Source of the DNA: an uncultured Thermoleophilia bacterium
Lineage (GTDB): Bacteria > Actinomycetota > Thermoleophilia > UBA2241
Assembly: GCA_963715985.1 (NCBI GenBank)
Contig: CAVQSP010000013.1
Location: forward strand, 544,001-608,000
Direction of reading: 5' to 3'
DNA: 64,000 nucleotides
The first letter of the stretch is position 1, and each line of letters starts with the position of its first letter. The position numbers and the translations under genes were made by a program. Below the pieces are notes generated by a model, which ran no database searches, had not been told where the DNA came from, and saw nothing but the letters and a program-made list of their open reading frames with translations. Shown one piece after another: positions 6,295 through 39,202 of the stretch.

Positions 6295-6795
6295 ATGCCT
6301 CACGTGATGATCTCGAGCAAGAAGTGCACCGGCTGCCACATGTGCGAGCTGGCCTGCTCCGCCTACCATGAGGGCGCCTACCGGCCGTCCGTGGCCCGCC
6401 TGTTCTCGGAGGTCAATCCGACCACCGGCGCCATCAAGGGCCACACCTGTCTGCAGACGGGGTGCTCCAAGTGCCAGAAGGCCTGCCCCAACGACGCCAT
6501 CGTGACCAAAGAGATCACGATGGCCGTCACGGGGGAGTTCGCCGCCAAAGCGAAGGTCGGCGAGAGCGTCAAGGGCTATGTGCTCGTCGTCGTCGACGAG
6601 CTCTGCACCAACTGCGGCGAGTGCTACGACGTCTGCCCCACCGGCGTCATCCACGAGCATCCCGACAAGGAGGTCGCGTACAAGTGCGACCTCTGCGACG
6701 GCTCTCCGCAGTGCATCGCCTTCTGCCAGAACCCGCACGTGCTCGCCGTGGACCTCAAGGTCGACCGGCAGGACAAGGAACTGGCGGCGGTCTGA
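6295..6795 (+). CDS. 4Fe-4S dicluster protein (AOR electron-transfer subunit)
   Basis: CTGCHMCELAC, CQKACP, CTNCGECYDVCP, KCDLC motifs. Confidence 0.9.
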   Translation: MPHVMISSKKCTGCHMCELACSAYHEGAYRPSVARLFSEVNPTTGAIKGHTCLQTGCSKCQKACPNDAIVTKEITMAVTGEFAAKAKVGESVKGYVLVVVDELCTNCGECYDVCPTGVIHEHPDKEVAYKCDLCDGSPQCIAFCQNPHVLAVDLKVDRQDKELAAV

Positions 6796-6799
6796 CGCC

Positions 6800-7069
6800 G
6801 TGGCCACCGCGTTCGTCAAACTGCCCGTGGGCATGACCACCACCGGCGGGCGCCGCGAAGTGGAGTGCGACGGCGCCACCGTGCGAGAGGTCATCGAGCA
6901 GGCCATCGCGGCCGAGCCGCGCATGCGCGCGCGCATCTTCCGCGAGGACGGGCGCATGTACGCCGGCGTGTTCATCAACGGGCGCAACATCAACGCCCTT
7001 GAGGGCATGGACACGCCCATCGCCGACGGCGACAAGCTCAGCGTGCTGCCCCCGCTCTCAGGCGGCTGA
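6800..7069 (+). CDS. MoaD/ThiS-family sulfur carrier
   Basis: ~90 aa, ends in PPLSGG; follows AOR. Confidence 0.88.
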   Translation: MATAFVKLPVGMTTTGGRREVECDGATVREVIEQAIAAEPRMRARIFREDGRMYAGVFINGRNINALEGMDTPIADGDKLSVLPPLSGG

Positions 7070-7091
7070 CGCCGCGGACGCGGTGAAGGGG

Positions 7092-7133
7092 GGCGGGGCC
7101 GGCGCTCGAAGGAGCACCGGCCCCGCTTTCGTT
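7092..7133 (+). terminator. Intrinsic terminator of the AOR operon
   Basis: GCGGGGCCGG-GCTC GAAG GAGC-CCGGCCCCGC stem followed by TTTCGTT. Confidence 0.7.
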
Positions 7134-7147
7134 GGTAGACTGTCCGC

Positions 7148-7810
7148 ATGGATGCAGCGGACACACGACGCCGCCTCGAGACTGCGGGCCTCGTCGAGGC
7201 GGTGGAGGGCCGGGCGAGCGTGCGCAAGTACCTGCCCGACCCCGTACCGCGCGATGACGTCACGGCGATGGTGGCCTTGGCGACCCGCGCCGCCAACGCC
7301 GGCAACGCGCAGATGTGGCGGTTCATCGCCGTGGACGACGCCGTCACGCAGATCGCCATGCGCCAGGCCGTGGACGAGGCCATCGACGAGATGGCGGCGT
7401 GGCCCGAGCTGGCCGGCAAGGCGAAGGAGATCAAGGCGCTGCGCGTGTACTCCACGTTCTTCGTCGACGCGCCGCTGGTGGTCGCCGTGTTCGGCTACCC
7501 GTATCTCGCGCGTGCCGACGAGATGCTGGACGCGCGCGGCGTGGGCGTGGAGGAGCGCGACAGGCTGCGCGCCCGGCCCGACCTGCAGAGCATCGGGGCG
7601 GCCGTCCAGCTCTTCTGCACGGCTGCCCACGCCCTCGGCTACGGCGCCTGCTGGATGACGGCGCCGGTGCTGGGTGCCCTCGCCATCGAGGAGCTCCTCG
7701 GGGTGGAGCCGCCGGCCAAGCTCGTGGCCGTCGTGCCCGTGGGCAGGCCGGCAGGCGCCGTGCGGCCGACGTCCAGGCGCCCTGTGGAGGACGTGCTCGA
7801 GTTCCGCTGA
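7148..7810 (+). CDS. Nitroreductase-family flavoprotein
   Basis: RASVRKY, AANAGNAQMWRF, AAHALGYGACWM; TAGACT -10 just upstream (leaderless). Confidence 0.85.
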   Translation: MDAADTRRRLETAGLVEAVEGRASVRKYLPDPVPRDDVTAMVALATRAANAGNAQMWRFIAVDDAVTQIAMRQAVDEAIDEMAAWPELAGKAKEIKALRVYSTFFVDAPLVVAVFGYPYLARADEMLDARGVGVEERDRLRARPDLQSIGAAVQLFCTAAHALGYGACWMTAPVLGALAIEELLGVEPPAKLVAVVPVGRPAGAVRPTSRRPVEDVLEFR

Positions 7811-7831
7811 ACCGGGGTGCGGCAGTCCGGC

Positions 7832-7861
7832 TTGCCACCTCTGCCCGTGCGTAGGTACACT
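7832..7861 (+). promoter_or_regulatory. Putative sigma-70-type promoter of pylBCD
   Basis: TTGCCA-18 nt-TACACT. Confidence 0.5.
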
Positions 7862-7927
7862 CGCCTGCGCGGCGACTGTGGCCGTTTCGCAGTCTCCCGG
7901 TCCACCTCTCGAAGGGGGGAACCTCCA

Positions 7928-9008
7928 GTGGCTCAGCCGACGCTCCTCATCGACGACCTCTGCGACAGGGCGCTGTCCGGAGAGAAGCTGGGGGTGCGCG
8001 AGCTGGAGGCGCTGCTCGCGGCCGACGAAGCCGGAGCGGAGACTGTCTTCGCGGCGGCGCGCGACGCCCGGCGCCGCGTCTTCGGGAGCACCGTGTTCCT
8101 CTATGGGTTCGTCTACTTCTCCACCTACTGCCGCAACGAGTGCGCGTTCTGCTTCTACCGCGCCGACAACACGGAGAGTCCGCGGTACCGCAAGACCCTG
8201 GACGAGGTCGTGGCCATCTGCCACGACCTGGCCGGGTCCGGTGTCGTGCTCCTTGACCTCACGATGGGAGAGGACCCCGTCATCCACGACGACCCGGGCT
8301 TTCGCGGGCTGCTGGAACTCGTGTCCTCCGTCCTGGAGGGCAGCGGCCTGCCCGTGATGGTGTCGCCGGGCGTGGTGCCGGGCCCCGTGCTCGCCGACCT
8401 CGCGGCGTGCGGGGCCGACTGGTACGCCCTGTATCAGGAGACCCACACTGCGGAGCTGTACGGGCGCCTGCGCGTCGGACAGCCGTACGCGGCGCGCGCC
8501 GAGGCGCGCAGCGCGGCCCGGCGCGCCGGCCTGCTCGTGGAGGACGGCCTGCTCACCGGCATCGGCGACACGGCCGCAGACCGCGCCCATTCGGTGGCCG
8601 TGATGCGCGAGGCCGCGTGGGAGCAGGTGCGCGTCATGACCTTCGTGCCCCAGGCGGGCACCCCGCTTGCAAGACACCACGCCGGCCGGCGACAACGCCG
8701 AGCTGCTCACGATCGCGGCCATGCGCCTGGCCATGCCGGAGGCGCTCATCCCCGCCTCGCTTGACGTGGACGGCATCGCCGGTCTGGAGCGCCGTCTGAA
8801 CGCCGGTGCCAATGTGGTGACGTCCATCGTCCCGCCCACCGTGGGCCTGGCCGGGGTGTCGCAGAGCGAACTGGACATCGAGGAGGGCCACCGTACCGTC
8901 GAGGGCGTGTTGCCCCACCTCGAGCGGCTCGGGATGCGCGCCGGCTCGGTGGACGAGTACCGCGCCTGGCTGACGGAGGCTCACACCCGCGCTCTGGGGC
9001 ACGCGTGA
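7928..9008 (+). CDS. pylB: Methylornithine synthase PylB (radical SAM); one frameshift near 8670
   Basis: FLYGFVYFSTYCRNECAFCFYR, DLTMGEDP, GADWYALYQET, QVRVMTFVPQAGTP; next frame IPASLDVDGIAGLERRLNAGANVVTSIVPP. Confidence 0.93.
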
Positions 9009-10252
9009 GGCTCCTCGTCGTCGGCGGCAAGCTGCAGGGTACGGAGGCCGCCTATCTGGGCGCCAAAGCGGGCTGGGAGGTCGTCCTCGTGGACCGCCGC
9101 GAGGCTCCCCCTGCGGCCGGCCTCGCCGCCCGTCACATCGTCGCGGACATCACCGCCGACGAGGACCGTGCACGCACGCTGGTGGCCTCCTGCGACGCGG
9201 TGCTGCCCGCCTGCGAGGATCTGGCCACGCTGGAGTGGCTGGCGGCCCGCGTGGAGGGCTGGGGCGTGCCGCTGCTGTTCGACCTCGCGGCCTACCGCGT
9301 CACGCAGTCAAAGGCGGCCTCGAGGGACCTTTTCGAGAGGCTCGGCGTGCCACGCCCCGCGTCGTGGCCGCACTGCGGATTCCCCGCCGTCGTCAAACCG
9401 GACGTGGCCAGCGGCAGCGATGGCGTCGCCGTGGTCGGCGATGAGGTGGAGCTCGAACAGGCCACGGCGGCGCTGCGCGCGGCCGGGCACGAGCCTCTGG
9501 TAGAGGAGTACGTCGCCGGGCCGTCTCTCTGGTACGAGGTCCTCGCCGCCGGCGGACGCTCAAGGGCGCTCCAGGTCACAGGCCTCGAGTTCGACGCCGT
9601 CTACGACTGTAAGCGCGTCGTGGCGCCGGTGGGCGAGGTGGGCGTCGGCGAAGAGCCGGCGCCGGTGGGCGCCGACGGCGGCACGGACTGGGAGCGCAGC
9701 GTGCCCGCCGGCACGCTGGCGGCGTTCGCCGGCGTCTCCGCCCGTCTCGCCGAGGGACTCGGCCTGTGCGGCCTCATGGACGTGGAGGTCATGGTGCGCG
9801 CCGGCGGGCCGCTCGTGCTCGAGATCGACGCCCGGCTGCCCAGCCAGACGCCTACCGCGGTGTACTGGTCCAGCGGTGTCAACATCCTGGAACTGCTGCA
9901 CGAGACGGTCGTGGCCGGCGCGCCCCCGGCGGTCGAGCCGGCCCCGCGCTACGCCTGCGTCTACCAGCACGTGAACGTGCGCGGGGGTTTGGCCGAGGTC
10001 GTGGGCGAGCATGTGATGGGAAGCGCGGCGCCGTTGCGCCTCGTGGAAGGGCTCTTCGGCGCGCACGAGGTGCTCACAGACTACCGCCCGGGCGCGGCCG
10101 AGTGGTGTGCGACGCTCATCACTACGGCGGACACCGCCTCCGGCGCCCGGGAGGCGGCCGACCAGGCGGTCCGGGACCTCGTCTCGCACGAGGGCCTTGA
10201 GCTCGTCCCGGAGAACGGCGCCGGGCGTGTCGACGAAGAGGTGTACAAGTGA
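9005..10252 (+). CDS. pylC: 3-methylornithine--L-lysine ligase PylC (ATP-grasp)
   Basis: VVGGKLQGTEAAYL, YDCKRV, GLMDVEV, LEIDARLPSQTPTAVYWSSGVN, GEHVM. Confidence 0.93.
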   Translation: MRLLVVGGKLQGTEAAYLGAKAGWEVVLVDRREAPPAAGLAARHIVADITADEDRARTLVASCDAVLPACEDLATLEWLAARVEGWGVPLLFDLAAYRVTQSKAASRDLFERLGVPRPASWPHCGFPAVVKPDVASGSDGVAVVGDEVELEQATAALRAAGHEPLVEEYVAGPSLWYEVLAAGGRSRALQVTGLEFDAVYDCKRVVAPVGEVGVGEEPAPVGADGGTDWERSVPAGTLAAFAGVSARLAEGLGLCGLMDVEVMVRAGGPLVLEIDARLPSQTPTAVYWSSGVNILELLHETVVAGAPPAVEPAPRYACVYQHVNVRGGLAEVVGEHVMGSAAPLRLVEGLFGAHEVLTDYRPGAAEWCATLITTADTASGAREAADQAVRDLVSHEGLELVPENGAGRVDEEVYK

Positions 10253-11055
10253 CGAGACTCACCGAACAGGACGTGCGCTCACTCACCGAGCGGCTCGCCG
10301 CCTTCGAGGACGGGCTGCGCGAAGTCGCGGGCATCGGCTTGCGCGAGCTCGCCATGGCCACGGTCGCGGACCCCCCGGTGTGCGTACCCCTCCACGGCAC
10401 GCGGATCGCGGCGGTGCCCATCACCTCGGGCCAGGGAGTGATCTCCGGGTTCACGGATTGCGTGGCCACGATACTGCGCCACATCGACTGTGACGCCTGG
10501 GTCACACAGCAGCCGGACGTGCGTGGCATCCAGGAGGCCATGACCAGCCGCGCCGAGGTCATCTTCCTCGCCGACGACTATCGCTTCGTGGCGCTCGACG
10601 TGCGCAAAGGCCGCTGCATCGACGACGATCCCGCTACGGCCGACGGCTACGTGACGGCGCTCGAGGCTGCGGCCGGCGGCTTGTTCGGCCGCAGGGTGCT
10701 GCTCCTCGGCCTGGGGCCTGTGGGCAGGGCCGCTGCGCGCCGCCTGGTGCGGTGCGGGGCGAAGGTCGAGGTCGTGGAGCCCGACGAGGCGCGATTGCAG
10801 GCCGCGCTGGACATCGGGCTCCGCATCAGGCCGGTCACGCTCGAGGAAGGCCTCTCCCGCTGCGACCTGATCTTCGATGCCACGCCGGCGCCGGACTTCA
10901 TCGACGCCGGCGACATCTCGGAGGCCACCATCGCCGCAGTGCCGGGCATCCCCTCGGCGTTCACACCCGCGGCGCAGGCGGCCCTCGGCGTGCGCCACAT
11001 CCACGAGCCGCTTGCCGTGGGCGTGGCCGTGATGGCCGCTCGCGCGCTCGTCTAG
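10249..11055 (+). CDS. pylD: Pyrrolysine synthase (3-methylornithyl-N6-lysine dehydrogenase) PylD
   Basis: MTRL start, VPITSGQGVISGF, PDVRG, FLADD, ATADGYV, GLGPVG, DATP, HEPLAVGV; ends in TAG. Confidence 0.92.
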   Translation: MTRLTEQDVRSLTERLAAFEDGLREVAGIGLRELAMATVADPPVCVPLHGTRIAAVPITSGQGVISGFTDCVATILRHIDCDAWVTQQPDVRGIQEAMTSRAEVIFLADDYRFVALDVRKGRCIDDDPATADGYVTALEAAAGGLFGRRVLLLGLGPVGRAAARRLVRCGAKVEVVEPDEARLQAALDIGLRIRPVTLEEGLSRCDLIFDATPAPDFIDAGDISEATIAAVPGIPSAFTPAAQAALGVRHIHEPLAVGVAVMAARALV

Positions 11056-11125
11056 GCGCGCCGGCGGCGAGACCGTCCTGCGCTCGCCGGACGCTTCGGC
11101 GACTCGTAGTACAATGGTCGCGCGC

Positions 11126-11198
11126 GGGGGGTCGATCGTAAGGATCAGCGCGGACTCTAAATCCACGTAGGCGGGTGTGACTCCCGCACTCCCCGCCA
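11126..11198 (+). tRNA. pylT: tRNA-Pyl (CUA anticodon, amber-decoding)
   Basis: GGGGGGT/ACTCCCC acceptor, G discriminator and encoded CCA; single linker base; GATC/GATC D-stem with 5-nt loop; long anticodon stem with CTCTAAA loop; short variable loop; T-loop without TTC; TACAAT at 11110-11115. Confidence 0.96.
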
Positions 11199-11245
11199 CT
11201 CTCTCTTCTTCCCGGCCCAGCCTGACGGCACCGGCGTGCCGCGTC

Positions 11246-12175
11246 TCAGGGCACGAACGTGACCGGGATGCGCACCTCGTCCTGGCGCGAGCCGTCCTCC
11301 ATCGACTGGTCGTAGACGATGAGGGTACCCGCCCCCGCGGACGTGCTGAAGGGGATCACCTTGCGGAAGTCGCCGCGCTCCGGGCCGCCGGCCGAGGCCT
11401 GCACCGGGACGTTGACGATGCGGCGGCCGCTGTCGTCGATGAGGCGAGTCATGAAGGCGCCCTCGAACACCAGGGCCGTCCCCGAGAGGACGAACGGGTT
11501 CGTGAGGACGGCGCCGACGCCGGGGCGCTCGACGAAGATGGCCGGCTCGAAGTCCGACCACTCGGCGCGCGTCTGCCCCGGATCGACGAGGAGGCCCTCG
11601 CCGCCGAGCGAGGCCAGCGGCTCGCCGTCCATGCGCAGGTCCACGGACTTCACCGAGTCGAACTGGGTGACCGTGTAGACGACCTGCGCCACGCGCGCCT
11701 GCATGGAGAGCGAACCGCCGCCCGAGGCGAACTCCCCCGACAGGTCCACGGTGGCGACGCCGTCCTTGACGGACACGCCGAGCAATCGCGTGCCGGGCGG
11801 GACGGCGCTGGAGAGGCCGGCGGCCTGCTCCGAGGTCGCCGGCCCGTCGCACAGCGCCGTCAGTGCAGCGGCGGCCACGGCTTGGGTGCGTGGCACCTGC
11901 CGCTCGGCCACGCCGAGCTTCTCGCCACGCAGGAAGTACGGACGAACGGTGGTCGTCGCGGCGGCGGGCGACGACGACGGCGCCTCCGACTCCTGTGGCG
12001 AGGCCGGCGTCGTGGTCCCGCTCGCGGCGCCGGTCGGAGTGGCGCCGCCCGTCGCGCCGCCGGCTGTGCCGCCGCAGGCGGCCGCCCCGGCGGCGCCGGC
12101 CAGTGCGAGGATGAGCGCGAGTGCGAGGAGTGTGGGCCGCAGGCGCGCAGTGCGCGGGCGCGGGATGTGGATCAT
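11246..12175 (-). CDS. Secreted/lipoprotein with GerMN and Gmad2-like Ig domains
   Basis: Signal peptide with AAAC, Thr/Ala linker, GVATVDLSGEF...AQVVYTVTQF, GTALVFEG. Confidence 0.8.
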   Translation of the reverse strand: MIHIPRPRTARLRPTLLALALILALAGAAGAAACGGTAGGATGGATPTGAASGTTTPASPQESEAPSSSPAAATTTVRPYFLRGEKLGVAERQVPRTQAVAAAALTALCDGPATSEQAAGLSSAVPPGTRLLGVSVKDGVATVDLSGEFASGGGSLSMQARVAQVVYTVTQFDSVKSVDLRMDGEPLASLGGEGLLVDPGQTRAEWSDFEPAIFVERPGVGAVLTNPFVLSGTALVFEGAFMTRLIDDSGRRIVNVPVQASAGGPERGDFRKVIPFSTSAGAGTLIVYDQSMEDGSRQDEVRIPVTFVP

Positions 12176-12261
12176 GGGCGGCCTCGTCTCGGCGATCGCA
12201 GGGGATTCACTTTCGCCGCCACGGGGGCCGCCTCCTGCCGGGGGTGGTAGACTGCAGCCCC

Positions 12262-12588
12262 ATGCCGACCGACCCCAACAAGGCGCGGTACTACCGCAAG
12301 CAGATCCCGCTCTTCCGGCTGCTGGAGAAGATCAAGCTGTGGCCCTCGCGCCGCGGCATCCTGCACGGCATCCGCGAGTTCGAGCCACGCGGCTCCTACG
12401 CCATCGTCGTCACGCACTGCGGCAAGCAGATGGTGGTGCACGACTCCAAGACCAGCCGCGCCGCCCGCTGGCTGCGCAACAAGTGGTACGCGGAGGCCTG
12501 CCCGAAGTGCCGCATCCCCGAGTGGAAGCTCCAGAAGTACGCCTCGACGCACTTCAATCGCGGGTACGGCTCTCACCTGCACGAATGA
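12262..12588 (+). CDS. pylSn: Pyrrolysyl-tRNA synthetase N-terminal subunit PylSn
   Basis: KIKLWPSRRGILHGI, THCG, SKTSRAARWLRNKW, ACPKCRIPEWKL; TAGACT 8 nt upstream. Confidence 0.95.
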   Translation: MPTDPNKARYYRKQIPLFRLLEKIKLWPSRRGILHGIREFEPRGSYAIVVTHCGKQMVVHDSKTSRAARWLRNKWYAEACPKCRIPEWKLQKYASTHFNRGYGSHLHE

Positions 12589-12600
12589 CCCGGCCGTGCG

Positions 12601-13239
12601 TCAGGGCGTCACGCCCTCGGCTGCGGGCGGGTCGTAGCTGATGCGCCCGCTGGCGAGGTCCAGGAACCGCCAGCCGCGGATCCCTGAGACCTTCCAGGCG
12701 CCATCCACCGGTGCCAGCGTGTACTCCATGATCACCGCCGTCGGTGAGGCCCTCGTGTGCATGTCCTCCGGCCCGCGCCGGGCGCTCCACCGGCACGAGG
12801 TGATGAAGTGCTCCACCGCGGCGCGCAGCACCACACGCCCGTCGGGGAAGCGGCCCAGGAAGTCGTAGTACACCACGCGTCCCCGGGCCGAGATGGGGAT
12901 CCGTCCGCCGGCCGTGCGCCGGCTGTCCAGCAAGCCTTGCGGCCGGTCTGTTTCCAGCCAGCGCTCCAGCACCCCGCCGGTCGCGTACCTTGCCATCTGG
13001 GCGTCCGCCATCGCCTGGAGCGCGTCCCTCTCCGCCGCCGAGAACGTGCTCAGGCCGCGGTACGCCACCGGCCACAGCGGGACCGGCGCGAGTTCGTAGC
13101 CGACGACGGTCGCCGTCATGGCCACCCTGTTGTGGCCCGAGGGGGGCGCGAGCGTCCACGCCTCGAGTGCCCAGAGGCCTGCGGCGGCGACGATGAGGAC
13201 GGTGAGGACGAGGCGCGCGTGCGGGAGCCTGCCGCGCAC
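12601..13239 (-). CDS. Hypothetical membrane-anchored protein
   Basis: N-terminal hydrophobic helix; directly follows the radical SAM gene. Confidence 0.5.
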   Translation of the reverse strand: MRGRLPHARLVLTVLIVAAAGLWALEAWTLAPPSGHNRVAMTATVVGYELAPVPLWPVAYRGLSTFSAAERDALQAMADAQMARYATGGVLERWLETDRPQGLLDSRRTAGGRIPISARGRVVYYDFLGRFPDGRVVLRAAVEHFITSCRWSARRGPEDMHTRASPTAVIMEYTLAPVDGAWKVSGIRGWRFLDLASGRISYDPPAAEGVTP

Positions 13240-13241
13240 GG

Positions 13242-14120
13242 TCAGAGCAGCCGCCAGCTCTCCGGGCGCAGCCGCACAGACTCCGGTGCCAGCAGGACCT
13301 TGTCCAGGGAGGCGAGTATGGCGGCCTTGTCCCGCGGCAGGCGGCCGCCCACGGGCAGGTAGTTGGAGGCGTGGTTGCTGCGGAAGAGGCAGTCCGACAC
13401 GTCGAGGTCGGCGACGATCTCGCGCAGCTCGCGCAGCATCCCCAGGGAGTCGGGGAGCACGAGCTCTCCGCTCGCGACCCTCCGCTCCATGGCGGTGCCG
13501 GGCGTGAGCATGAGCGTGAGCACGCCGATGTACTGGGGGTCGATGGCGGACAGAGCCCGGCCCGTGGCTGCGCCGTGTTCCAGCGACCGCTCCGCCCCGG
13601 CCAGCCCGAGGATGGCGGTCACCGAAAGGGCGATGCCGGCCTCCGTGGCGCGCCGGCAGCCGTCGATCTGCTCCGCCACCGTCATGCCCTTGTGGACGTC
13701 GGCCAGGGTCTGGTCGTCGCCGGACTCCAGGCCCAGGTAGAGAAGCGCCAGGCCGTGTTCGCGGAGCGACGCCAGATCCTCCACGCTCTTGGCCAGCAGG
13801 TTGCGCGCGTTGGCGTAGCTGCTCACGCGCTCCAGATTGGGGAGCGCACGGTGGAGCAGTTGGAGGATGTCGTGGAGCTTGCGCGGACTCAGGGCGAGCG
13901 CGTCGCCGTCCGCCAGAAAGACGCGGTCCACGCGGGTGCGCACGGTGGACGGCAGGTTGAGGACGTCGTCCACCACCTCGTCGAAGGGCCGCACCGCGAA
14001 CGGCTTGTCGAGGTAAGTGCCGCAGAAGTCGCAGGTGTTGTTGGAGCACCCGTACGTCACCTGGACGATCAGGCTGGAGGCTTCGCTCGGGGGGCGGATG
14101 ACGGCACCGTGGTATCTCAC
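13242..14120 (-). CDS. Radical SAM protein (RPPSEA subfamily)
   Basis: IRPPSEASSLIVQVTYGCSNNTCDFCGTY, VFLADGDAL, YLGLESG, FRSNHASNYL. Confidence 0.88.
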   Translation of the reverse strand: MRYHGAVIRPPSEASSLIVQVTYGCSNNTCDFCGTYLDKPFAVRPFDEVVDDVLNLPSTVRTRVDRVFLADGDALALSPRKLHDILQLLHRALPNLERVSSYANARNLLAKSVEDLASLREHGLALLYLGLESGDDQTLADVHKGMTVAEQIDGCRRATEAGIALSVTAILGLAGAERSLEHGAATGRALSAIDPQYIGVLTLMLTPGTAMERRVASGELVLPDSLGMLRELREIVADLDVSDCLFRSNHASNYLPVGGRLPRDKAAILASLDKVLLAPESVRLRPESWRLL

Positions 14121-14312
14121 GCCCCTGATGCTAGCACGGGTGCCCGTGGTCGCGCGGCCTTGTGCGCCGGGACACATGGTGGGCTCCGAGCGCGGCTGAT
14201 ATACTCCGGCGGTCGCAGGAAGGGGGAGCGACACGCCGTCTCCAGCCTTCCTCGAACCGCCACACCTCGCAGTGCGGTGTAGCCGTTGGAGACATTGGGA
14301 GGAGCCCCACGC

Positions 14313-14946
14313 ATGGCCACCATCTACGAAGAAGCAGCCCAGACCATCATCGACGCCGACCGCGCCGGGGCCGAAGCGGTCGCAGCTCGCGCCCTCGCCG
14401 AGGGCATCAGCCCCGCCGACATCATGCAGAACGGCTTCGTCATGGGCATCCAGGAGGTCGGCGAGCTCTTCGAGAGCGGCGAGGTCTTCCTCCCCGAGCT
14501 GATGATGAGCGCCGACGCCATGGCCGGCGCCACCGAGGTCACCAACGCCGCCCTCGAGGGCGAGGCCGCCGAGGCCAAGGGCGTGATCGTCATCGGCACC
14601 GTGCAGGGCGACGTGCACGACATCGGCAAGGCGATCGTGATCGCCTACCTGAAGGCCAACGGCTACGAGGTCCACGACCTCGGGCGCGACGTGCCCGCCG
14701 AGGCCTTCCTCACCCGTGCCGCCGAGACCGGCGCCGACGTGATCGGCATGAGCGCCCTGCTCACGACGACGATGGAGGAGCAGAAGAAGGTCATCAAGCG
14801 CGTGCAGCGAGGAGGGCCTGCCCTACAAGTGCGTCGTCGGCGGCGCCCCCGCCACGCAGCGCTGGGCCGACCAGATCGGCGCCGACGCCTACGCCGAGGA
14901 CGCCAACGACGGGGTCAAGAAGATCAACGAGCTGCTGGGGAAGTAA
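14313..14946 (+). CDS. Methyltransferase cognate corrinoid protein (MttC/MtbC-like); frameshift near 14808
   Basis: VGELFESGEVFLPELMMSA, GTVQGDVHDIGK, DLGRDVP, SALLTTTM; next frame VVGGAPATQRWADQIGADAYAEDA. Confidence 0.9.
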
Positions 14947-14970
14947 GAGCCCGGACAGCTGAGTGCGCCG

Positions 14971-15004
14971 TCGAGGGGGCGGGCCGTGAGGCCCGCCCCC
15001 TCGC
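14971..15004. terminator. GC hairpin terminator
   Basis: CGAGGGGGCGGGCC GTGA GGCCCGCCCCCTCG. Confidence 0.6.
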
Positions 15005-15160
15005 GCGTACGCCACTCGTGCGCTGCACCCTCGGCGTCTGAACGAGTGGGCCGACCGGTCCGACTGCTACCGCGACAGCCCGACGCATGCGCGGGGCGCC
15101 GACCTCGACCAGGTCGTGGCCTGGTGCGAGCCCGGACCCGGTGTGGCGGCGCTGGACTGC

Positions 15161-15295
15161 GTCAGATGCTGAGCGGCGCCCCTGCGGCGCAGCGCTCGAC
15201 ATCCCCGCTTGCGCCGTGCGACCGGCCCATGGGGCCGGCCTCATTGCGCTGCGTCAGATGAAGAGCGGTGACCCTGCGGCGCACCGCTCGACATC
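15161..15295. repeat. Two copies of a ~43-bp palindromic REP-like element
   Basis: GTCAGATG..GAGCGG..CCCTGCGGCGCA.CGCTCGACATC at 15161-15203 and 15253-15295. Confidence 0.65.
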
Positions 15296-15324
15296 TCCCC
15301 TCGCCGCGGCTTCGCTGCGGCTCG

Positions 15325-16155
15325 TCAGATGTTGAGCCGCACGCCGTTCACGTACGTGAGGCTGCGGCCGGCGCGCTCGATGTTGGGGTAGCCCTCGCGC
15401 ACCATGATCAGCCGTTCGAGGCCGAACCCGAGGCCCACCCACGGCTCCATGATGCCCCAGTTGCCGTCCAGCGGGTGAGGGCCCATCCCGGCCGAGCACA
15501 CCTCCGTGCCGCCGACCTCGACATCCACCATCTGGCCGTACACCTCGGACTCGGTGCGCACGAGCTCGTACTCGCTCACCCCGGCGGCCTGCATCACCAG
15601 CGCCGCGAGCTCGTTCATGCGCTCGCGGCAGGTGCCTGCCGGCGTGCCGAGCTCTACGAGGTTGAGCATCGTGAACTCGTTGAGGTGGCTGGCGCCCTTG
15701 CTGTCGCGGCGGAAGCAGGTGCCGATCTCGAAGATGCCGAAGGGGCGGCCCCACATGCGGCCCAGACGGCGCATCACGGTGTACAGGTTGGGTGCCAGCA
15801 TGGGCCGCAGGCAGCGCCCGTCCTCGAGCCAGAACACCTGCTCGCGCAGCGGGTGCCCGTGCTCGATACCCATCTTGACGAGCGAGTCGGCGGCGATGAT
15901 GAGCGGCGTCACCACGGGGACGAACCCGGCCCCGCAGAGGGCGGTGCGCAGCGCCGTCTCAAGCTCGATCAGCTCCGGCGCCCGGCCGCCGTCGCGAAGC
16001 TCCTGCAGGCGTCGCCGGCCGTCGCGGACCAGTTCGTCCTCGGCGGCGCGAAACGCGGCGTCGCGCGCCGCCGCGTCGGCGAAGGTCGCCGCGGTCAGCC
16101 CGGCGCCCCCGCCGAGCTCGCGCAGGCGCTGCAGTTGCGTGGCGGTGAGGTTCAC
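15325..16155 (-). CDS. pylSc: Pyrrolysyl-tRNA synthetase catalytic subunit PylSc
   Basis: CLRPMLAPNLY, FEIGTCFRRDSKGASHLNEFTMLNLVELG, VYG, GPHPLD..WGI..PWVGLGFGLERL; AAAGGAG before GTG at 16155 (alternative start 16185). Confidence 0.96.
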   Translation of the reverse strand: MNLTATQLQRLRELGGGAGLTAATFADAAARDAAFRAAEDELVRDGRRRLQELRDGGRAPELIELETALRTALCGAGFVPVVTPLIIAADSLVKMGIEHGHPLREQVFWLEDGRCLRPMLAPNLYTVMRRLGRMWGRPFGIFEIGTCFRRDSKGASHLNEFTMLNLVELGTPAGTCRERMNELAALVMQAAGVSEYELVRTESEVYGQMVDVEVGGTEVCSAGMGPHPLDGNWGIMEPWVGLGFGLERLIMVREGYPNIERAGRSLTYVNGVRLNI

Positions 16156-16181
16156 GCTGTCTCCTTTGTCCGGCGCCGGCG

Positions 16182-17267
16182 TCACGTCCCCGCCCCGGGG
16201 AGCCGAACGCGGGCCAGGTAGTCCGTGAGGCCGCCCACGAGGGCTCGGGCCACCGCCTCGATGTGGGATGGGCGTCGCGCCAGGCGCTCCTCGTCGGGGT
16301 TGCTCAGGAAGAGCGGCTCGACAAGAACGGCGATGGCGCGCGTCTCGCGCAGCACGCCGTAGTTGCGCCCGAACTCGCCCAGGCTGCAGCCGCCCGTGGC
16401 CTCGAGCCGGGCGGCCAGATGCCCGGCCAGCAGGCGCCCGTGCTCGGAGAAGTAGTGGCCGCGCTGGAAGTAGTAGCAGGCGGCGCCACGAGCGGCCGTG
16501 GAGCGGTCCTGGTTGCCGTGCAGCGAGATGAAGCAGTCGGCGCCCGCCGCACCGGCGGCCTCGGCGCGTGCGTACAGCGGCAGCGTGTCGTCACGCTCGC
16601 GTGTGAGCCGCACGCGACAGCCCTCGGCGCGGAGCAGCTCGGCGAAGCGCAGCCCGAGCGCCAGCGAGAAGTCCTTCTCCGCGAGGCCTGACGGCGAGAC
16701 GTACCCGGTGTCGGTGCCGCCGTGCCCGGGGTCGATCACCACCACCTGCCCGGTGAGGCTGCGCGCCGGCACGTAGCCGCCGTCACGTTCGGGGATCTTC
16801 TTGCCCTCGCGCCCCGACTCCGCCTTGCGCAGCGCCTCGAGCTTGCGGATCGTGCTCTCGCCGACGATGCCGTCGGGGATGAGCCCGGCGTTGCGCTGGA
16901 AGTCGAGCACGCCGCGCTCCACGTGGTCGTCGTGCACGCCGCGTTCGGCGCCGGCGTTGAAGCCCAGCAGGTTGAGCTTGACCTGCAGGGTGAGCACGTC
17001 GTCGCCGCGAAACGGCGGCTCCTTGAGGTAGAGCAGCCGGTCGCCGAGCGCGTAGCCCGCCTCCACGAGCTCCCGCCACGTGTTGGCGCCCACCACCCCG
17101 TCGGCCAGCATGTCGCGCTCCTGCTGGAAGGTGCGAACAGCCGCCTCGGTGCTGGGTCCGAAGAACCCGTCCGCGCCCTCGCGGCCGGGCTCGTGTCCCT
17201 GCCCGCGCAGGCGGGTCTGTACGTCGAGGACTTCTTTGCCGCGGTCGCCGCGGGAGAGGTTACGCAC
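16182..17267 (-). CDS. N-acetylmuramoyl-L-alanine amidase with two peptidoglycan-binding domains (CwlM-like)
   Basis: ADGFFGPSTEAAVRTFQ repeats; VVIDPGHGG, ISLH, VLVEPLFLSN. Confidence 0.88.
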   Translation of the reverse strand: MRNLSRGDRGKEVLDVQTRLRGQGHEPGREGADGFFGPSTEAAVRTFQQERDMLADGVVGANTWRELVEAGYALGDRLLYLKEPPFRGDDVLTLQVKLNLLGFNAGAERGVHDDHVERGVLDFQRNAGLIPDGIVGESTIRKLEALRKAESGREGKKIPERDGGYVPARSLTGQVVVIDPGHGGTDTGYVSPSGLAEKDFSLALGLRFAELLRAEGCRVRLTRERDDTLPLYARAEAAGAAGADCFISLHGNQDRSTAARGAACYYFQRGHYFSEHGRLLAGHLAARLEATGGCSLGEFGRNYGVLRETRAIAVLVEPLFLSNPDEERLARRPSHIEAVARALVGGLTDYLARVRLPGAGT

Positions 17268-17279
17268 GCCGGATCCCCG

Positions 17280-18129
17280 TCAGATGCCCATGCCCGAGCG
17301 CACGCCGGTCACGATGAGGATGAGGATGGCGACGCCCACGACGATGCGGTAGACGACGAAGATACTGAAGGTGTGCCGCTTGAGGTAGGCGAGCGTGAAC
17401 CAGATCGCGGCGAACCCGCTCACGGCCGCCGAGAGGATGCCGACCGCAAAGGGGGTGGCGGTACCGGCCGGCAGGCCGTCCTTGGCCACCTCGAGCGCCT
17501 TGTACGCGGCCGCCCCGCCGATCACGGGGATGCTCATGAGGAAGGAGTACTGCGCCGCCGACTCGCGGTCGAGGCGCATCAGGAGGCCGGTCATCATGGT
17601 GATGCCGGAGCGCGACACACCGGGGCACAGGGCGAACGCCTGGGCGATGCCGATGAGGACGGCGTCGAGCCAGCTGAGGCTCTCCAGGTCGCGGTCCAGC
17701 CTGGCGATGTGGTCGATGAGGTACATGACGCCGGCGAACACGATCATCATGACGGCGATGATCCAGGGTCTTGCCGAGGCGGTCCTCGATGAAGCTCTCC
17801 AGAGCGACTCCGATGATCGCCGCGGGGATGGTGCTGACGATCAGCAGCCAGGCGAGCTTGGCCTCGGGGTCGGCGAGACTCCGCCTGGACATGCTGCGGG
17901 CCCACGCCGCAAGCAGGCGCCCGATCTCGCGCCAGAAGTACACCACCACGGCCACGAACGTGCCCAGGTGCAGGGCCACGTCGAACGTCTTGTTGAGGCC
18001 GGGGTTCTCGAGGAGGAAGTGCCAGTTGAAGAGCCACGGGACGATGATCAGGTGACCGGAGCTGGAGATGGGCAGGAACTCGGTCAGACCCTGGACGATG
18101 CCGAGGATGAGGGCCTGCAGGATGGTCAC
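17280..18129 (-). CDS. uppP: Undecaprenyl-diphosphate phosphatase; frameshift near 17770
   Basis: GIVQGLTEFLPISSSGHL and PGVSRSGIT in consecutive frames. Confidence 0.9.
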
Positions 18130-18260
18130 GGATGATCCTCGCTTTGGTGGGCGGTGACGGGCGGGCGCGCGCCGCCCCCCGAGCCTGAGTTTAGCCCACG
18201 GTATACCTGTGGAGGCATCGGCGTCGACCGCGGGCGCGCCCGCGAAGGGAGAGAAGGGAA

Positions 18261-18677
18261 ATGGCGGCAAGCGACCCGGTCGTGGTGAGCTGGAAGCAGA
18301 AAGGCCTGCTGTTCGGGGGGGTCACCTCGCACGGGCGTGTCGACCTGGCTTCGTCCCTCGACGGGCCCGGGCAAGGAGCCACCCCGATGGAGTTGCTCGC
18401 GGTCTCCCTGGCCGGCTGCACCGCGATGGACGTGGTCTCGATCCTGCAGAAGATGAGGCAACCGCTGGAGGAGATCCGCGTCGAGGTGCGTGGCGAGATG
18501 GCTGAGGAGCACCCCAGGCGCTTCATCTCGCTGGAGGTCGTGTACTACCTCAAGGGCGCCCTCGACGAACGCAAGGTCCGGCGCGCCGTCGAGCTCTCGG
18601 AGACGCGCTACTGCTCGGTGGAGGCCACACTGCTGCCGACGGTCGCCATCACGTCGCGCGTCGTCATCGAGAGCTGA
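18261..18677 (+). CDS. OsmC-family protein
   Basis: PMELLAVSLAGCTAMDV...YCSV. Confidence 0.88.
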   Translation: MAASDPVVVSWKQKGLLFGGVTSHGRVDLASSLDGPGQGATPMELLAVSLAGCTAMDVVSILQKMRQPLEEIRVEVRGEMAEEHPRRFISLEVVYYLKGALDERKVRRAVELSETRYCSVEATLLPTVAITSRVVIES

Positions 18678-20101: not shown

Positions 20102-21501
20102 TGGACATCGCCGCCTTCGACACCGGCCTGCTGCAGGACACCCTCGCGCGCGCTCTTCACCGCGGCGGCGACTTCGCCGAGGTGTATGTGGAGGACCGCG
20201 ACACCCTCGGTCTGCGCCTCGAGGACGGCCGCATCGAGCAGACCAGCGGTGGCCGGGAGACCGGCGCCGCCGTGCGCCTGCTGGCCGGCGAGCGTACGTA
20301 CTACGCCTACAGCGACGCCCTGGACGAGGCCGGCCTTGCGGCCGCCGCCGATGCCGTTGCGGCCGCCGTGCGCGCCGGCGACGGCGGGGCCGACGTGGTG
20401 CACCTGGGCGCCGTGCGCAGCGCGCCCGGCGAGCACCCGGTGGTCATCCCACCGGACGGTGTGGCCATCGCGTGGAAGGCGGCCCTGGTGCGCGCCGGCG
20501 ACGAGGCCGCGCGCGAAGCCGGGGCGGAGATCGCCCAGGTCATCGTGGGCTACGGCGACACGCGCCAGAAGGTCCTCATCGCCAACTCGCTCGGCGAGCT
20601 CGTGTTCGACGACCGCACGCGTACACGGTACTCGGCCCAGGTCGTGGCCCGTCGCGGCGACGTCATCCAGACGGGCCACGAGACCGTGGGCGGCAGCGCC
20701 GGCTTCGAGCTCCTCGACGAGGCCGTCGCCGCGGCCACGGCCGCCGAGGCGGCCGCCAAGGCCATCACCATGCTCGACTCCCGGCCCGCCCCTGTGGGGG
20801 CCATGCCGGTGGTGCTCGGCAACGGGTTCGGCGGCACCCTCTTCCACGAGGCGTGCGGGCACGGGCTCGAGGCCGACGCCATCGCCAAGGGCGCCAGCAT
20901 CTACGCGGGCAAGCTCGGCGAGGTCGTGGCGGCGCCGCAGGTCAGCGCGTACGACGACGGGTCGCTGCGCAACGGCTGGGGCTCGCAGGCCTTCGACGAC
21001 GAGGGCGTGCCGACGCAGAAGACGCTGGTCATCGAGGACGGGCGTCTCACGGGCTACCTGTACGACCGTCTGCGTGCCCGTGAGGCGGGCGCGGCGCCCA
21101 CGGGCAACGGGCGCCGCCAGTCGTTCCGCCACGTGCCCATCCCGCGCATGACCACCACGTACATCGCGCCGGGCGACGCCACGGCCGAGGAGATCATCGC
21201 CGCGACGCCGCGCGGCTTCTACGCCAAGAGCCTCGCCGGAGGCCAGGTGGAGCCGGCGAGCGGCGCCTTCGTGTTCGGCGTCGCCGAGGGCTACCTCATC
21301 GAGGACGGCCGGCTCACCACGCCGCTGCGCGGCGCCACCCTGGTGGGCAACGGCATCGACATCCTCATGAAGATCGACATGATCGCCGGCGACTTCGAGG
21401 TGAAGACCGGCATCTGCGGCAAGGACGGCCAGGGTGTGCCAGTGGGCACGGGCCAGTCCACGCTGCGCATCGCCGAGATGACGGTGGGGGGGACGGGCTG
21501 A
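20101..21501 (+). CDS. tldD: TldD metalloprotease
   Basis: FHEACGHGLEAD, FDDEG, TGNGRRQS, PRMT, CGKDGQGVPV. Confidence 0.93.
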   Translation: MDIAAFDTGLLQDTLARALHRGGDFAEVYVEDRDTLGLRLEDGRIEQTSGGRETGAAVRLLAGERTYYAYSDALDEAGLAAAADAVAAAVRAGDGGADVVHLGAVRSAPGEHPVVIPPDGVAIAWKAALVRAGDEAAREAGAEIAQVIVGYGDTRQKVLIANSLGELVFDDRTRTRYSAQVVARRGDVIQTGHETVGGSAGFELLDEAVAAATAAEAAAKAITMLDSRPAPVGAMPVVLGNGFGGTLFHEACGHGLEADAIAKGASIYAGKLGEVVAAPQVSAYDDGSLRNGWGSQAFDDEGVPTQKTLVIEDGRLTGYLYDRLRAREAGAAPTGNGRRQSFRHVPIPRMTTTYIAPGDATAEEIIAATPRGFYAKSLAGGQVEPASGAFVFGVAEGYLIEDGRLTTPLRGATLVGNGIDILMKIDMIAGDFEVKTGICGKDGQGVPVGTGQSTLRIAEMTVGGTG

Positions 21502-22845: not shown

Positions 22846-22905
22846 TACAGTCTCCCTGCGGGGCGCCGCGGTGCCCTGCTTCGGCACGACGGTGAAGGGA
22901 GCCGG

Positions 22906-38549: not shown

Positions 38550-39202
38550 ATGTCCCAGCAGCTCTACGAGCAGATGAAGCAGAGCGTCATCGACGGCGAG
38601 GTCGAGGACGCCGAACGCCTCGCCCAGGAGGGCCTCGACGCCGGCCTGCCCGCCGGCGACATCCTCGACGCCGGTTTCGTGAAGGGCATCGAGGAGGTCG
38701 GCGAGCTCTTCGGGCGCGGCGAGTTCTTCCTCCCCGAGCTCGTGCAGGGGGCGGAGGCGATGAAGGCCGCGGTGCGCGTCCTGCAGCCCGCCCTCGACGC
38801 CTCCGGCGGCGGCCGCCAGGCGCTCGGCGTGGCCGTCGCCGGGACCGTGGCCGGCGACATCCACGAGATCGGCAAGACGATCGTCTGCAGCATGCTCTCC
38901 GCCGCCGGCTTCACCGTCACCGACGTGGGCTGCGACGTGCCCGTCGAGACCTTCATCGCGACCTGCAAGGAGACCAACGCCGACCTGCTCCTGCTCAGCG
39001 CCCTGCTGACCACGACGATGCCCAACCAGCAGAAGACGATCGCAGGCGCTGAAAGAGGCCGGTCTGCGCGACAAGCGTGAAGGTGATGATCGGCGGCGCC
39101 CCCACGACGCGGGCCTGGGCCGACGAGATCGGCGCCGACGGCTACGCCGAGGACGCCATCGAGGCGGTCGTCGCGGCGAAGGCGCTGCTGGGGGTGGAGT
39201 AG
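38550..39202 (+). CDS. Second methyltransferase corrinoid protein; two apparent insertions near 39040-39076
   Basis: GEFFLPELV, GTVAGDIHEIGK, SALLTTTM; shifted frames give ALKEAGLRDK and VKVMIGGAP..WADEIGADGYAEDA. Confidence 0.88.

What the first reader, a model, noticed from the sequence alone, without database searches (positions are those of the whole stretch)
7928..16155. Complete pyrrolysine genetic-code-expansion system in a probable high-GC actinobacterium
Seen: pylB, pylC, pylD, a CUA tRNA, pylSn and pylSc, each with its diagnostic motifs. Established: bacterial Pyl systems use a split PylSn/PylSc and are known mainly from anaerobic Firmicutes and Deltaproteobacteria. Inference: the host looks like an anaerobic Thermoleophilia-type Actinomycetota, and the pyl genes share its GC-rich codon style and promoter type with no mobility genes nearby. 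That suggests a long-resident 22nd amino acid in an unexpected lineage.
Basis: partly seen in the sequence, partly recalled or inferred. Interest (0 to 1): 0.95.

Follow-up and report, generated by a model that had tools for sequence, protein, structure and literature searches.

The report
Pyrrolysine gene set in wetland Thermoleophilia
This is a real, complete gene set for making and inserting pyrrolysine, the 22nd amino acid, in an uncultured wetland actinobacterium (class Thermoleophilia); the trait is old and widespread in that family, but it is already listed in surveys and databases.

Summary
They are pylB, pylC, pylD, a CUA tRNA with the odd tRNA-Pyl cloverleaf, pylSn and pylSc.

- **pylB frameshift.** As assembled, pylB is split by a one-base insertion at 8670. 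Contigs from 3 of 3 independent wetland or soil runs that cover the site lack that base. Two other genes in the window are split the same way, so this is most likely an assembly error.
- **Use of Pyl.** The genome holds 8 MttB, 8 MtbB and 2 MtmB genes, each near full length with one in-frame TAG. TAG still ends 637 of 3604 crude gene calls, and RF1 is present, so decoding is ambiguous rather than reassigned.
- **Host.** The host is a Thermoleophilia-type actinobacterium.
- **Spread.** PylSc occurs in 73 of 79 sampled species of its family. The locus has a conserved scattered layout set among housekeeping genes, and its PylSc forms one clade.
- **Prior knowledge.** A Thermoleophilia PylSc is listed in Guo et al. 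2022. Expression of Pyl-type mttB and mtbB in Actinobacteriota was reported in 2023. NCBI already names these proteins. This scan reported the same system before in at least 18 other genomes.

Verdict: a new member of a known kind, of moderate interest.

The parts
7832..7861 (+). promoter-like site upstream of pylB (TTGCCA, 18 nt, TACACT)
   Evidence: 1 site found in 6500-18000, against 0.3 expected from shuffles. This is a consensus match only, so the evidence is weak.
7928..9008 (+). pylB (methylornithine synthase, radical SAM), split as assembled by a one-base insertion at about 8670
   Evidence: TIGR03910 profile positions 5-252 and 247-347 lie in two frames; contigs of 3 of 3 runs covering 8670 lack one base there; without that base it reads as one 359-aa frame, aligning over 341-348 residues with 0-1 gap openings to the intact PylB of three relatives.
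9005..10252 (+). pylC (3-methylornithine--lysine ligase)
   Evidence: TIGR03909, 317.9 bits, above the 248.3 cut-off. Its start overlaps the pylB stop.
10249..11055 (+). pylD (dehydrogenase); ends in TAG, with a second in-frame TAG at 11107
   Evidence: TIGR03911, 199.5 bits, above the 150.05 cut-off. Searches show the stop codons.
11126..11198 (+). pylT, tRNA-Pyl (anticodon CUA, 73 nt, CCA encoded)
   Evidence: ARAGORN. (fold); 30 homologues, 23 pairs, 12 of them with compensatory changes.
11246..12175 (-). GerM/Gmad2-domain lipoprotein, interleaved in the locus; no known Pyl role
   Evidence: Germane 2.5e-25, Gmad2 1.1e-17; conserved at this place in relatives.
12262..12588 (+). pylSn (tRNA-binding small subunit of PylRS)
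   Evidence: TIGR03912, 123.5 bits, above the 51.15 cut-off; matches the PylRS N-terminal domain 5UD5, E 6.9e-13.
12601..13239 (-). ORF of 212 aa with no family match; poorly conserved and possibly not a gene
   Evidence: no Pfam hit; 28-30% identity, in 4 loci only.
13242..14120 (-). radical SAM protein of 292 aa, conserved inside the locus; role unknown
   Evidence: PF04055, 4.5e-15; 54-87% identical in relatives.
14313..15041 (+). methyltransferase-cognate corrinoid protein (MttC/MtbC-like)
   Evidence: TIGR02370, 173.2 bits, below the 215.3 cut-off. B12-binding and B12-binding_2 domains.
15325..16185 (-). pylSc (catalytic subunit of PylRS)
   Evidence: TIGR02367, 316.2 bits, above the 178.15 cut-off. 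D. hafniense PylSc 3DSQ, E 7.3e-93, over residues 14-286.
16182..17267 (-). cell-wall amidase (CwlD/AmiA-like, with a peptidoglycan-binding domain); its stop overlaps the pylSc start by 4 nt
   Evidence: lies upstream of pylSc in 42 of 42 actinobacterial loci and in 0 of 38 others.

Best explanation
The window carries a working bacterial-type pyrrolysine system in a wetland Thermoleophilia bacterium.

How it works, step by step:
- PylB, PylC and PylD make pyrrolysine from two lysines. This step is known from the families, not tested here.
- The split synthetase charges pyrrolysine onto a CUA-anticodon tRNA. PylSn binds the tRNA and PylSc catalyses the charging.
- That tRNA reads single in-frame UAG codons in the genome's trimethylamine, dimethylamine and monomethylamine methyltransferase genes.
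- The methyl groups pass by corrinoid proteins towards tetrahydrofolate and the acetyl-CoA pathway, for which genes are present. This step is inferred.

UAG also remains an ordinary stop codon read by RF1. Decoding is therefore ambiguous, as in other Pyl bacteria, and not reassigned.

The system was inherited vertically within the family. It has been rearranged into a scattered, two-strand locus interleaved with housekeeping genes. The pylB frameshift in this assembly is most likely an indel error.
For: - **Gene identities.**
- **tRNA.**. In one search, 12 of 23 pairs show compensatory changes across 30 homologues.
- **Targets.**
  - 8 of 8 near-full-length PF09505 (MtbB) matches carry exactly one TAG.
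  - 2 of 6 full-length PF05369 (MtmB) matches carry one TAG.
  - 11 of 89 PF06253 (MttB) matches carry one TAG, and 8 of these span 400 or more profile positions.
  - In one MttB the TAG aligns with position 334 of the solved M. barkeri MttB chain 7XCM.
- **Stop usage.** TAG ends 637 of 3604 crude gene calls, or 17.7%. RF1 scores 479.7 bits against a 423.25 cut-off.
- **pylB.** One base at 8670 is missing in the contigs of 3 of 3 runs that cover it. Without it the gene reads as one 359-aa frame. pylB is intact in 3 of 4 relatives checked. bacA, pmbA and the ACS gene are split in the same way.
- **Vertical descent.**
  - PylSc is in 73 of 79 sampled species of the family, in 9 of 61 of a second family, and in 0 of 260 in ten other families of the class.
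  - It is in 0 of 369 sampled genomes of other classes of the phylum.
  - The amidase-pylSc junction is present in 42 of 42 actinobacterial loci.
  - A 42-row PylSc clade has SH-aLRT 99.
- **Downstream path.** RamA-like activases, ACS and a pterin-binding methyltransferase are present.
Against: - No RNA or protein evidence was obtained here. Amber suppression and Pyl residues are untested.
- As deposited, pylB is broken. The contigs that lack the extra base come from strains 1-3% different from this one, so a strain-specific lesion is not excluded.
- The genome is a MAG, 88.8% complete with 7.29% contamination.
- TAG-terminated genes show no nearer backup stop than TGA-terminated ones (median 61 against 56 codons). 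How read-through of ordinary TAG stops is limited is therefore unexplained.
- My gene calls are crude, covering 76% of the genome as coding.
- The tree is a quick search over the 80 loci most like the query, so the sister relation to other bacteria is not settled.
Confidence: 0.85

Rival explanations
1. The system is decaying in this strain. The pylB frameshift is real, pyrrolysine is no longer made, and the TAG-containing methyltransferase genes are on their way to becoming pseudogenes.
For: - pylB is in two frames as assembled.
- Several MttB, MtbB and MtmB paralogues lie in 2-7 pieces.
- 4 of 49 sampled species of the genus have no PylSc, and three of those are 93-98% complete, so loss does happen.
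Against: - Contigs of 3 of 3 runs covering the site lack the base.
- Housekeeping genes (bacA, pmbA, ACS) are split too, which points to assembly error.
- pylC, pylD, pylSn, pylSc and pylT are intact.
- 18 near-full-length methyltransferase genes each keep exactly one TAG and no other stop.
Confidence: 0.08
2. The pyl genes are a recent horizontal acquisition, or a binning or assembly chimera, and do not belong to the actinobacterial host.
For: - The MAG has 7.29% contamination.
- Pyl genes are patchy across bacterial phyla.
- One locus in the clade is titled Zixibacteria.
Against: - The contig is 675,794 bases with even G+C.
- The pyl genes are interleaved with housekeeping genes whose closest relatives are the same MAGs.
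- The same layout lies on contigs of up to 1,999,427 bases in relatives.
- Presence is family-wide and PylSc forms one clade.
- The 'Zixibacteria' locus has the actinobacterial layout, so its title is probably wrong.
Confidence: 0.03
3. UAG is reassigned genome-wide to pyrrolysine, as reported for some archaea (Kivenson et al. 2025; seen only as cited in PMC13695967).
For: - There are about 20 TAG-containing genes.
- pylD itself ends in TAG.
- 84 of 637 TAG-ended calls have a coding-like extension, against 178 of 2844 TGA-ended calls.
Against: - TAG ends 17.7% of gene calls and RF1 is present.
- Of the 38 read-through translations printed and the 7 scanned, nearly all are two neighbouring genes in one frame, such as rpsB-tsf, secY-adk and hisA-hisF.
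- The one domain-spanning TAG outside the methyltransferases that I followed up (AcnX) is not shared. None of the 18 other matches in the 80 other genomes of the family sample has a stop.
Confidence: 0.02

Closest known systems
Desulfitobacterium hafniense-type bacterial Pyl system (pylT, pylSc, pylBCD, separate pylSn)
   Same: It has the same split synthetase. PylSc aligns end to end with the solved D. hafniense enzyme (3DSQ and 2ZNI, E about 1e-92). It has the same three biosynthesis genes and the same kind of tRNA. UAG is kept as a stop as well.
   Different: - The genes here are scattered over 8.3 kb on both strands and interleaved with a GerM lipoprotein, a radical SAM gene and a corrinoid protein. 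pylSc is joined to a cell-wall amidase gene. The 38 non-actinobacterial loci keep their pyl genes on one strand.
- PylSc is about 51-58% identical to these and forms its own clade.
- The tRNA has 73 nt, with an extra base between the D and anticodon stems. The Desulfosporosinus-type copies have 72 nt.
Thermoleophilia and Actinobacteria PylSc entries in Guo et al. 2022 (PMC9630628, supplement) and NCBI-annotated Thermoleophilia MAG proteins
   Same: The protein clade is the same. The best 120 database hits are 73-99% identical, and three of them (73-76% identical in the alignment, P0119 at 75%) carry the NCBI name 'pyrrolysine--tRNA(Pyl) ligase large subunit [Thermoleophilia bacterium]'. By eye, the sequence printed in the supplement resembles the window's PylSc along its whole length. 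I did not align them.
   Different: The species is different. Those sources list the synthetase only. I found no description in print of the locus layout, the family-wide spread or the set of target genes.
Pyl-encoding mttB and mtbB of Actinobacteriota MAGs in Stordalen Mire (Ellenbogen et al. 2023, PMC10805028; passages read)
   Same: The habitat type is the same (wetland and peat), the phylum is the same, and so are the amber-interrupted methyltransferase genes, which are reported there as expressed.
   Different: That paper does not mention pylS or pylB (0 occurrences). I cannot tell whether its MAGs belong to the same genus.
Methanosarcina pylTSBCD with mttB, mtbB and mtmB
   Same: The pathway and targets are the same. 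In the one MttB I aligned to a solved chain, the TAG falls at position 334 of the M. barkeri chain.
   Different: The archaeal PylS is one fused protein in a compact operon. Here the synthetase is split and the locus is dispersed.

Membership tests
Bacterial split-PylRS pyrrolysine system | A catalytic subunit PylSc that matches the curated equivalog model above its cut-off | tested here: met
   TIGR02367, 316.2 bits against 178.15. 3DSQ, E 7.3e-93, full length.
Bacterial split-PylRS pyrrolysine system | A separate pylSn gene for the tRNA-binding domain | tested here: met
   TIGR03912, 123.5 bits against 51.15. 5UD5, E 6.9e-13. It lies on the opposite strand, 2.7 kb from pylSc.
Bacterial split-PylRS pyrrolysine system | A tRNA with a CUA anticodon and the atypical tRNA-Pyl cloverleaf: one base between the acceptor and D stems, a 5-nt D loop without GG, a long anticodon stem and a very short variable region (this list of hallmarks is recalled) | tested here: met
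   ARAGORN. The fold shows each of these features. 12 of 23 pairs show compensatory changes in 30 homologues. No Rfam family reached its gathering score.
Bacterial split-PylRS pyrrolysine system | pylB, pylC and pylD for pyrrolysine synthesis | tested here: inconclusive
   pylC and pylD are above their cut-offs. pylB is in two frames as assembled, at 304.8 and 126.4 bits against a 348.2 cut-off. It reads as one frame if the base at 8670 is left out, as in the contigs of 3 of 3 runs.
Bacterial split-PylRS pyrrolysine system | In-frame UAG at the known Pyl site of methylamine methyltransferase genes in the same genome | tested here: met
   8 MtbB, 2 MtmB and 8 near-full-length MttB genes each carry one TAG. 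In one MttB the TAG aligns with position 334 of 7XCM.
Bacterial split-PylRS pyrrolysine system | Actual insertion of pyrrolysine at UAG | not testable with these tools
   This needs amber suppression assays or mass spectrometry.
Genome-wide UAG-to-Pyl code (archaeal 'Pyl code') | UAG no longer used as a stop codon | tested here: not met
   TAG ends 637 of 3604 crude gene calls. RF1 is present at 479.7 bits.

The most novel reading that the evidence does not exclude
In this family the Pyl machinery is wired differently from all described bacterial systems. pylSc is translationally coupled to constitutive cell-wall genes. The tRNA and pylBCD form a separate unit on the other strand. One in six genes still ends in UAG, with no sign of backup stops.

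If so, the cell would limit read-through by controlling pyrrolysine synthesis or the tRNA, not the synthetase. The PylRS/tRNA-Pyl pair would be a separate, old bacterial lineage that might be orthogonal to the pairs now used in synthetic biology.
Probability: 0.25. Interest if true: 0.55.

Novelty: new member of a known kind. Interest (0 to 1): 0.35.

Why it matters
Thermoleophilia of this family are common in wetlands. 20 wetland or soil runs from 19 named studies (one names none) hold near-identical DNA. They carry about 20 pyrrolysine-dependent methylamine methyltransferase genes per genome. They may therefore compete with methylotrophic methanogens for methylamines, and so bear on methane budgets.

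For genetic-code work, the family offers a large, uncultured, high-GC set of PylRS/tRNA-Pyl pairs. It is also a case of ambiguous UAG decoding in a genome that still uses UAG often as a stop. None of this changes what is known about how pyrrolysine works.

Tried and rejected
1. **MtmB-like reading of ORF 12757-13362.** The ORF is followed by a TAG, but its translation is low-complexity antisense sequence with no family hit. Rejected.
2. **High-GC Bacillota host.** I considered this because of the GerM, CwlD and SleB-like genes. Rejected: named relatives of PylSc, of Rho and of the flanking genes are Thermoleophilia or Actinomycetota MAGs.
3. **Search for Pyl proteins beyond the methyltransferases.**
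   - 84 TAG-ended calls have coding-like extensions, and 64 of these lie outside the methyltransferase loci.
I read by eye the 38 translations it printed and scanned 7 others.
   - Nearly all are neighbouring genes in one frame.
   - A 25-codon coding score after the stop did not separate true read-through from neighbours: 16 of 64 TAG cases against 37 of 178 TGA cases passed.
   - The remaining 19 candidates were not examined.
4. **AcnX with an in-frame TAG inside its domain.** The TAG is not conserved. None of the 18 other matches has a stop, and five orthologues have GAG or GAC at that place. Rejected as a Pyl site.
5. **Rfam scan of the window.** No family reached its gathering score.
6. 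**Terminator scan.** 1 site found against 2.2 expected, so it says nothing.


Full report
**What is in the sequence**

The window is G000:C13:544001-608000, part of a 675,794-base contig. The assembly has 4.35 Mb in 22 contigs with G+C of 0.69-0.71. It is rated 88.8% complete with 7.29% contamination.

Curated NCBIfam models identify these genes, each score given against its cut-off:

| Gene | Position | Model | Bits | Cut-off |
|---|---|---|---|---|
| pylC | 9005-10252 (+) | TIGR03909 | 317.9 | 248.3 |
| pylD | 10249-11055 (+) | TIGR03911 | 199.5 | 150.05 |
| pylSc | 15325-16185 (-) | TIGR02367 | 316.2 | 178.15 |
| pylSn | within 12121-12588 (+), likely start 12262 | TIGR03912 | 123.5 | 51.15 |

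ARAGORN finds tRNA-Pyl with anticodon CTA at 11126-11198 (+).

PylSc aligns over residues 14-286 with the solved Desulfitobacterium hafniense PylSc (3DSQ, E 7.3e-93). PylSn aligns with the solved N-terminal domain of PylRS (5UD5, E 6.9e-13).

The tRNA folds as follows:
- a 7-bp acceptor stem;
- one base before a 4-bp D stem;
- a 5-nt D loop without GG;
- a long anticodon stem, which in this copy has one C-A mismatch;
- the anticodon loop CUCUAAA;
- two bases before a 5-bp T stem;
- a discriminator G and an encoded CCA.

These are the hallmarks of tRNA-Pyl as I recall them from the literature. In an alignment of 30 homologues from the related loci, 12 of 23 predicted pairs keep pairing through changes on both sides.

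**The pylB frameshift**

pylB is not one frame as assembled. ORF 7817/7928-8764 covers profile positions 5-252 of 347. ORF 8667-9008, one frame over, covers positions 247-347. The shift lies at about 8670.

I laid Logan contigs of four public runs on the region. In X1, X2 and X12, every contig covering 8670 lacks one base there. X3 has no cover at that place. These contigs differ from the window by a few percent, so they come from related strains.

With that base left out, the gene reads as one 359-aa frame without stops. It aligns over 341-348 residues, with 0-1 gap openings, to the intact PylB of three relatives.

pylB is one frame in G015, G002 and G007. It is split at a different place in G013, another assembly with few contigs and low completeness.

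Other genes are split in the same way:
- In the same window, bacA/uppP is split near 17750 and pmbA near 22300-22420.
- The acetyl-CoA synthase gene elsewhere in the genome lies in two frames.

Many close relatives in the public collection are long-read MAGs on very long contigs. I read the frameshift as an indel error of the assembly. A real lesion in this strain is not excluded.

**Is the system used?**

The genome holds many matches to the three methylamine methyltransferase families:
- **MttB (PF06253).** 89 matches, many of them paralogues without any stop. 11 have exactly one TAG, and 8 of those span 400 or more of the 500 profile positions.
- **MtbB (PF09505).** All 8 near-full-length matches carry exactly one TAG.
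- **MtmB (PF05369).** 2 of 6 full-length matches carry one TAG.

In the MttB at C13:306672-308141, the TAG aligns with position 334 of the solved M. barkeri MttB chain 7XCM. I recall that position as the pyrrolysine site.

Genes for the later steps are present: two RamA-like corrinoid activases, acetyl-CoA synthase and a pterin-binding methyltransferase. A tRNA-Sec is present too.

**Is UAG reassigned?**

No.
- In a crude gene call of my own (3604 genes, 76% of the genome), stops are TGA 2844, TAG 637 and TAA 123.
- RF1 is encoded just past the window's end (479.7 bits against a 423.25 cut-off).
- The distance from a TAG stop to the next in-frame stop is no shorter than for TGA (medians 61 and 56 codons).
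- TAG-ended calls have coding-like extensions about twice as often as TGA-ended ones (84 of 637 against 178 of 2844). Twenty of the 84 are the methyltransferases.
- Of the other 64, I saw 38 as translations and scanned 7 more. Nearly all are neighbouring genes in one frame.
- An AcnX gene has a TAG inside its domain. None of the 18 other matches in the 80 other genomes of the family sample has a stop. Five orthologues have GAG or GAC at that place. I take it for a mutation or a base error.
- I did not examine 19 of the 64.

**Who is the host?**

The best 120 PylSc homologues are 73-99% identical. Three of them carry the NCBI name 'pyrrolysine--tRNA(Pyl) ligase large subunit [Thermoleophilia bacterium]'.

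The window's Rho has named relatives at 90-96% identity, titled Thermoleophilia bacterium or Actinobacteria bacterium.

Of the 80 best genomic loci, 42 have the actinobacterial layout. By record title, 30 are Thermoleophilia (one of them UBA2241), 4 Actinomycetota, 7 Actinomycetes and 1 Zixibacteria.

McDaniel et al. 2020 (PMC7438021, passages read) describe the order UBA2241 as uncultured Thermoleophilia from permafrost and lake hypolimnia, outside the recognised aerobic orders. I cannot match the coded GTDB groups to names, so the order of this genome is not established.

Near-identical DNA lies in 20 runs, 19 from wetland metagenomes and 1 from a soil metagenome. These belong to 19 named studies; one run names no study.

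**How old is the trait?**

Presence of PylSc in the genome samples:

| Group sampled | With PylSc |
|---|---|
| The window's own family | 73 of 79 species, in all 10 sampled genera |
| A second family of the class | 9 of 61 |
| Ten other families of the class | 0 of 260 |
| Other classes of the phylum | 0 of 369 |

- The six species of the family without a match are 65-98% complete.
- The amidase gene lies directly upstream of pylSc in 42 of 42 actinobacterial loci and in 0 of 38 others.
- pylSn lies on the opposite strand in 30 of the 42. Most of the rest are short loci.
- tRNA-Pyl with pylD and pylC lies on the opposite strand in 24 of the 42.
- The 38 loci from Bacillota, Chloroflexota, Desulfobacterota, Aminicenantes and others keep their pyl genes on one strand. 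Often the order is pylSc, corrinoid protein, pylBCD, tRNA, pylSn.
- In a quick maximum-likelihood tree of 86 rows, 40 rows titled Actinomycetota, the window and the 'Zixibacteria' row form one clade (SH-aLRT 99). It is sister to the other bacterial rows.
- Two loci were dropped before the tree: L056, whose match is split, and L088, which has a stop in the match. The tree holds only the loci most like the query, and its outgroups are unnamed, so the deeper placement is open.

**What is already known**

- Guo et al. 2022 (PMC9630628; passages and supplement read) found PylRS in 81 bacterial genomes, including 'two Actinobacteria'. Their supplement lists 'Thermoleophilia_bacterium' and 'Actinobacteria_bacterium_ADurb.BinA094'.
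- A 2025 review repeats the count (PMC11764691).
- Ellenbogen et al. 2023 (PMC10805028; passages read) report that some Actinobacteriota MAGs of a thawing permafrost mire express Pyl-encoding mttB and mtbB. The words pylS and pylB do not occur in that paper.
- Searches for pyrrolysine with Thermoleophilia, Actinomycetota or Actinobacteriota, for UBA2241, for RBG-16-64-13, and for Thermoleophilia with MttB gave nothing further on the pyl genes of this class.
- Supplements on external sites (figshare, Zenodo) could not be seen, and they may name the MAGs.
- This scan has reported the same system before: 22 findings in at least 18 genomes. One of them describes the same scattered layout.

**Verdict**

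The claim of an unexpected lineage is not supported, because the lineage is already on record.

What seems undescribed in print:
- the family-wide spread;
- the dispersed, housekeeping-embedded locus, with pylSc coupled to a cell-wall amidase gene;
- the size of the methyltransferase complement, beside frequent use of TAG as a stop.

Noticed in passing
window 17260-18270 (-) and 21501-22895 (+): bacA/uppP and pmbA are each split by one frameshift, like pylB. BacA profile positions 1-111 and 119-256 lie in two frames. PmbA domains 1, 2 and the start of domain 3 lie in one frame, and positions 85-220 of domain 3 in another. This points to indel errors in the assembly.
   Followed up: partly
G000:C3:97349-98563 (-) (L170:1501-2715): An Aconitase X gene has a single in-frame TAG at residue 256 inside its Pfam domain. 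None of the 18 other matches in the family sample has a stop. Five orthologues have GAG or GAC there. It is a one-base change, a young nonsense mutation or a base error.
   Followed up: yes
window 36076-36155 (-): ARAGORN calls an 80-nt tRNA-Glu (ctc) inside the B12-binding radical SAM gene 35104-36534 (-). The Rfam scan found no tRNA anywhere in the window at gathering score. This is probably a false call.
   Followed up: partly
window 38550-39080, 42080-42748, 43854-44303: The window holds a second corrinoid protein (its B12-binding domain appears cut short), a DUF1638 protein and a corrinoid adenosyltransferase. These are more cobalamin-related genes 22-28 kb from the pyl locus.
   Followed up: no
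G000:C13:139538-139635: A tRNA-Sec (anticodon tca) is present. The genome may therefore use both the 21st and the 22nd amino acid.
   Followed up: no
G000, many contigs (for example C3, C9, C12, C14): The MttB superfamily is greatly expanded, with 89 matches, most of them without TAG. Several lie in runs of 5-7 frame-broken pieces. An earlier finding on this genome links MttB genes to histidine catabolism.
   Followed up: no
window 10249-11160: pylD itself ends in TAG, and a second in-frame TAG lies 17 codons on. The next other stop falls inside the tRNA-Pyl gene. Whether Pyl-tRNA extends PylD is unknown.
   Followed up: no
L054 (record titled candidate division Zixibacteria): This locus has the actinobacterial layout (amidase, pylSc, pylSn, GerM, tRNA, pylDCB) and sits inside the actinobacterial PylSc clade. 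Its record title is probably a misclassification.
   Followed up: partly
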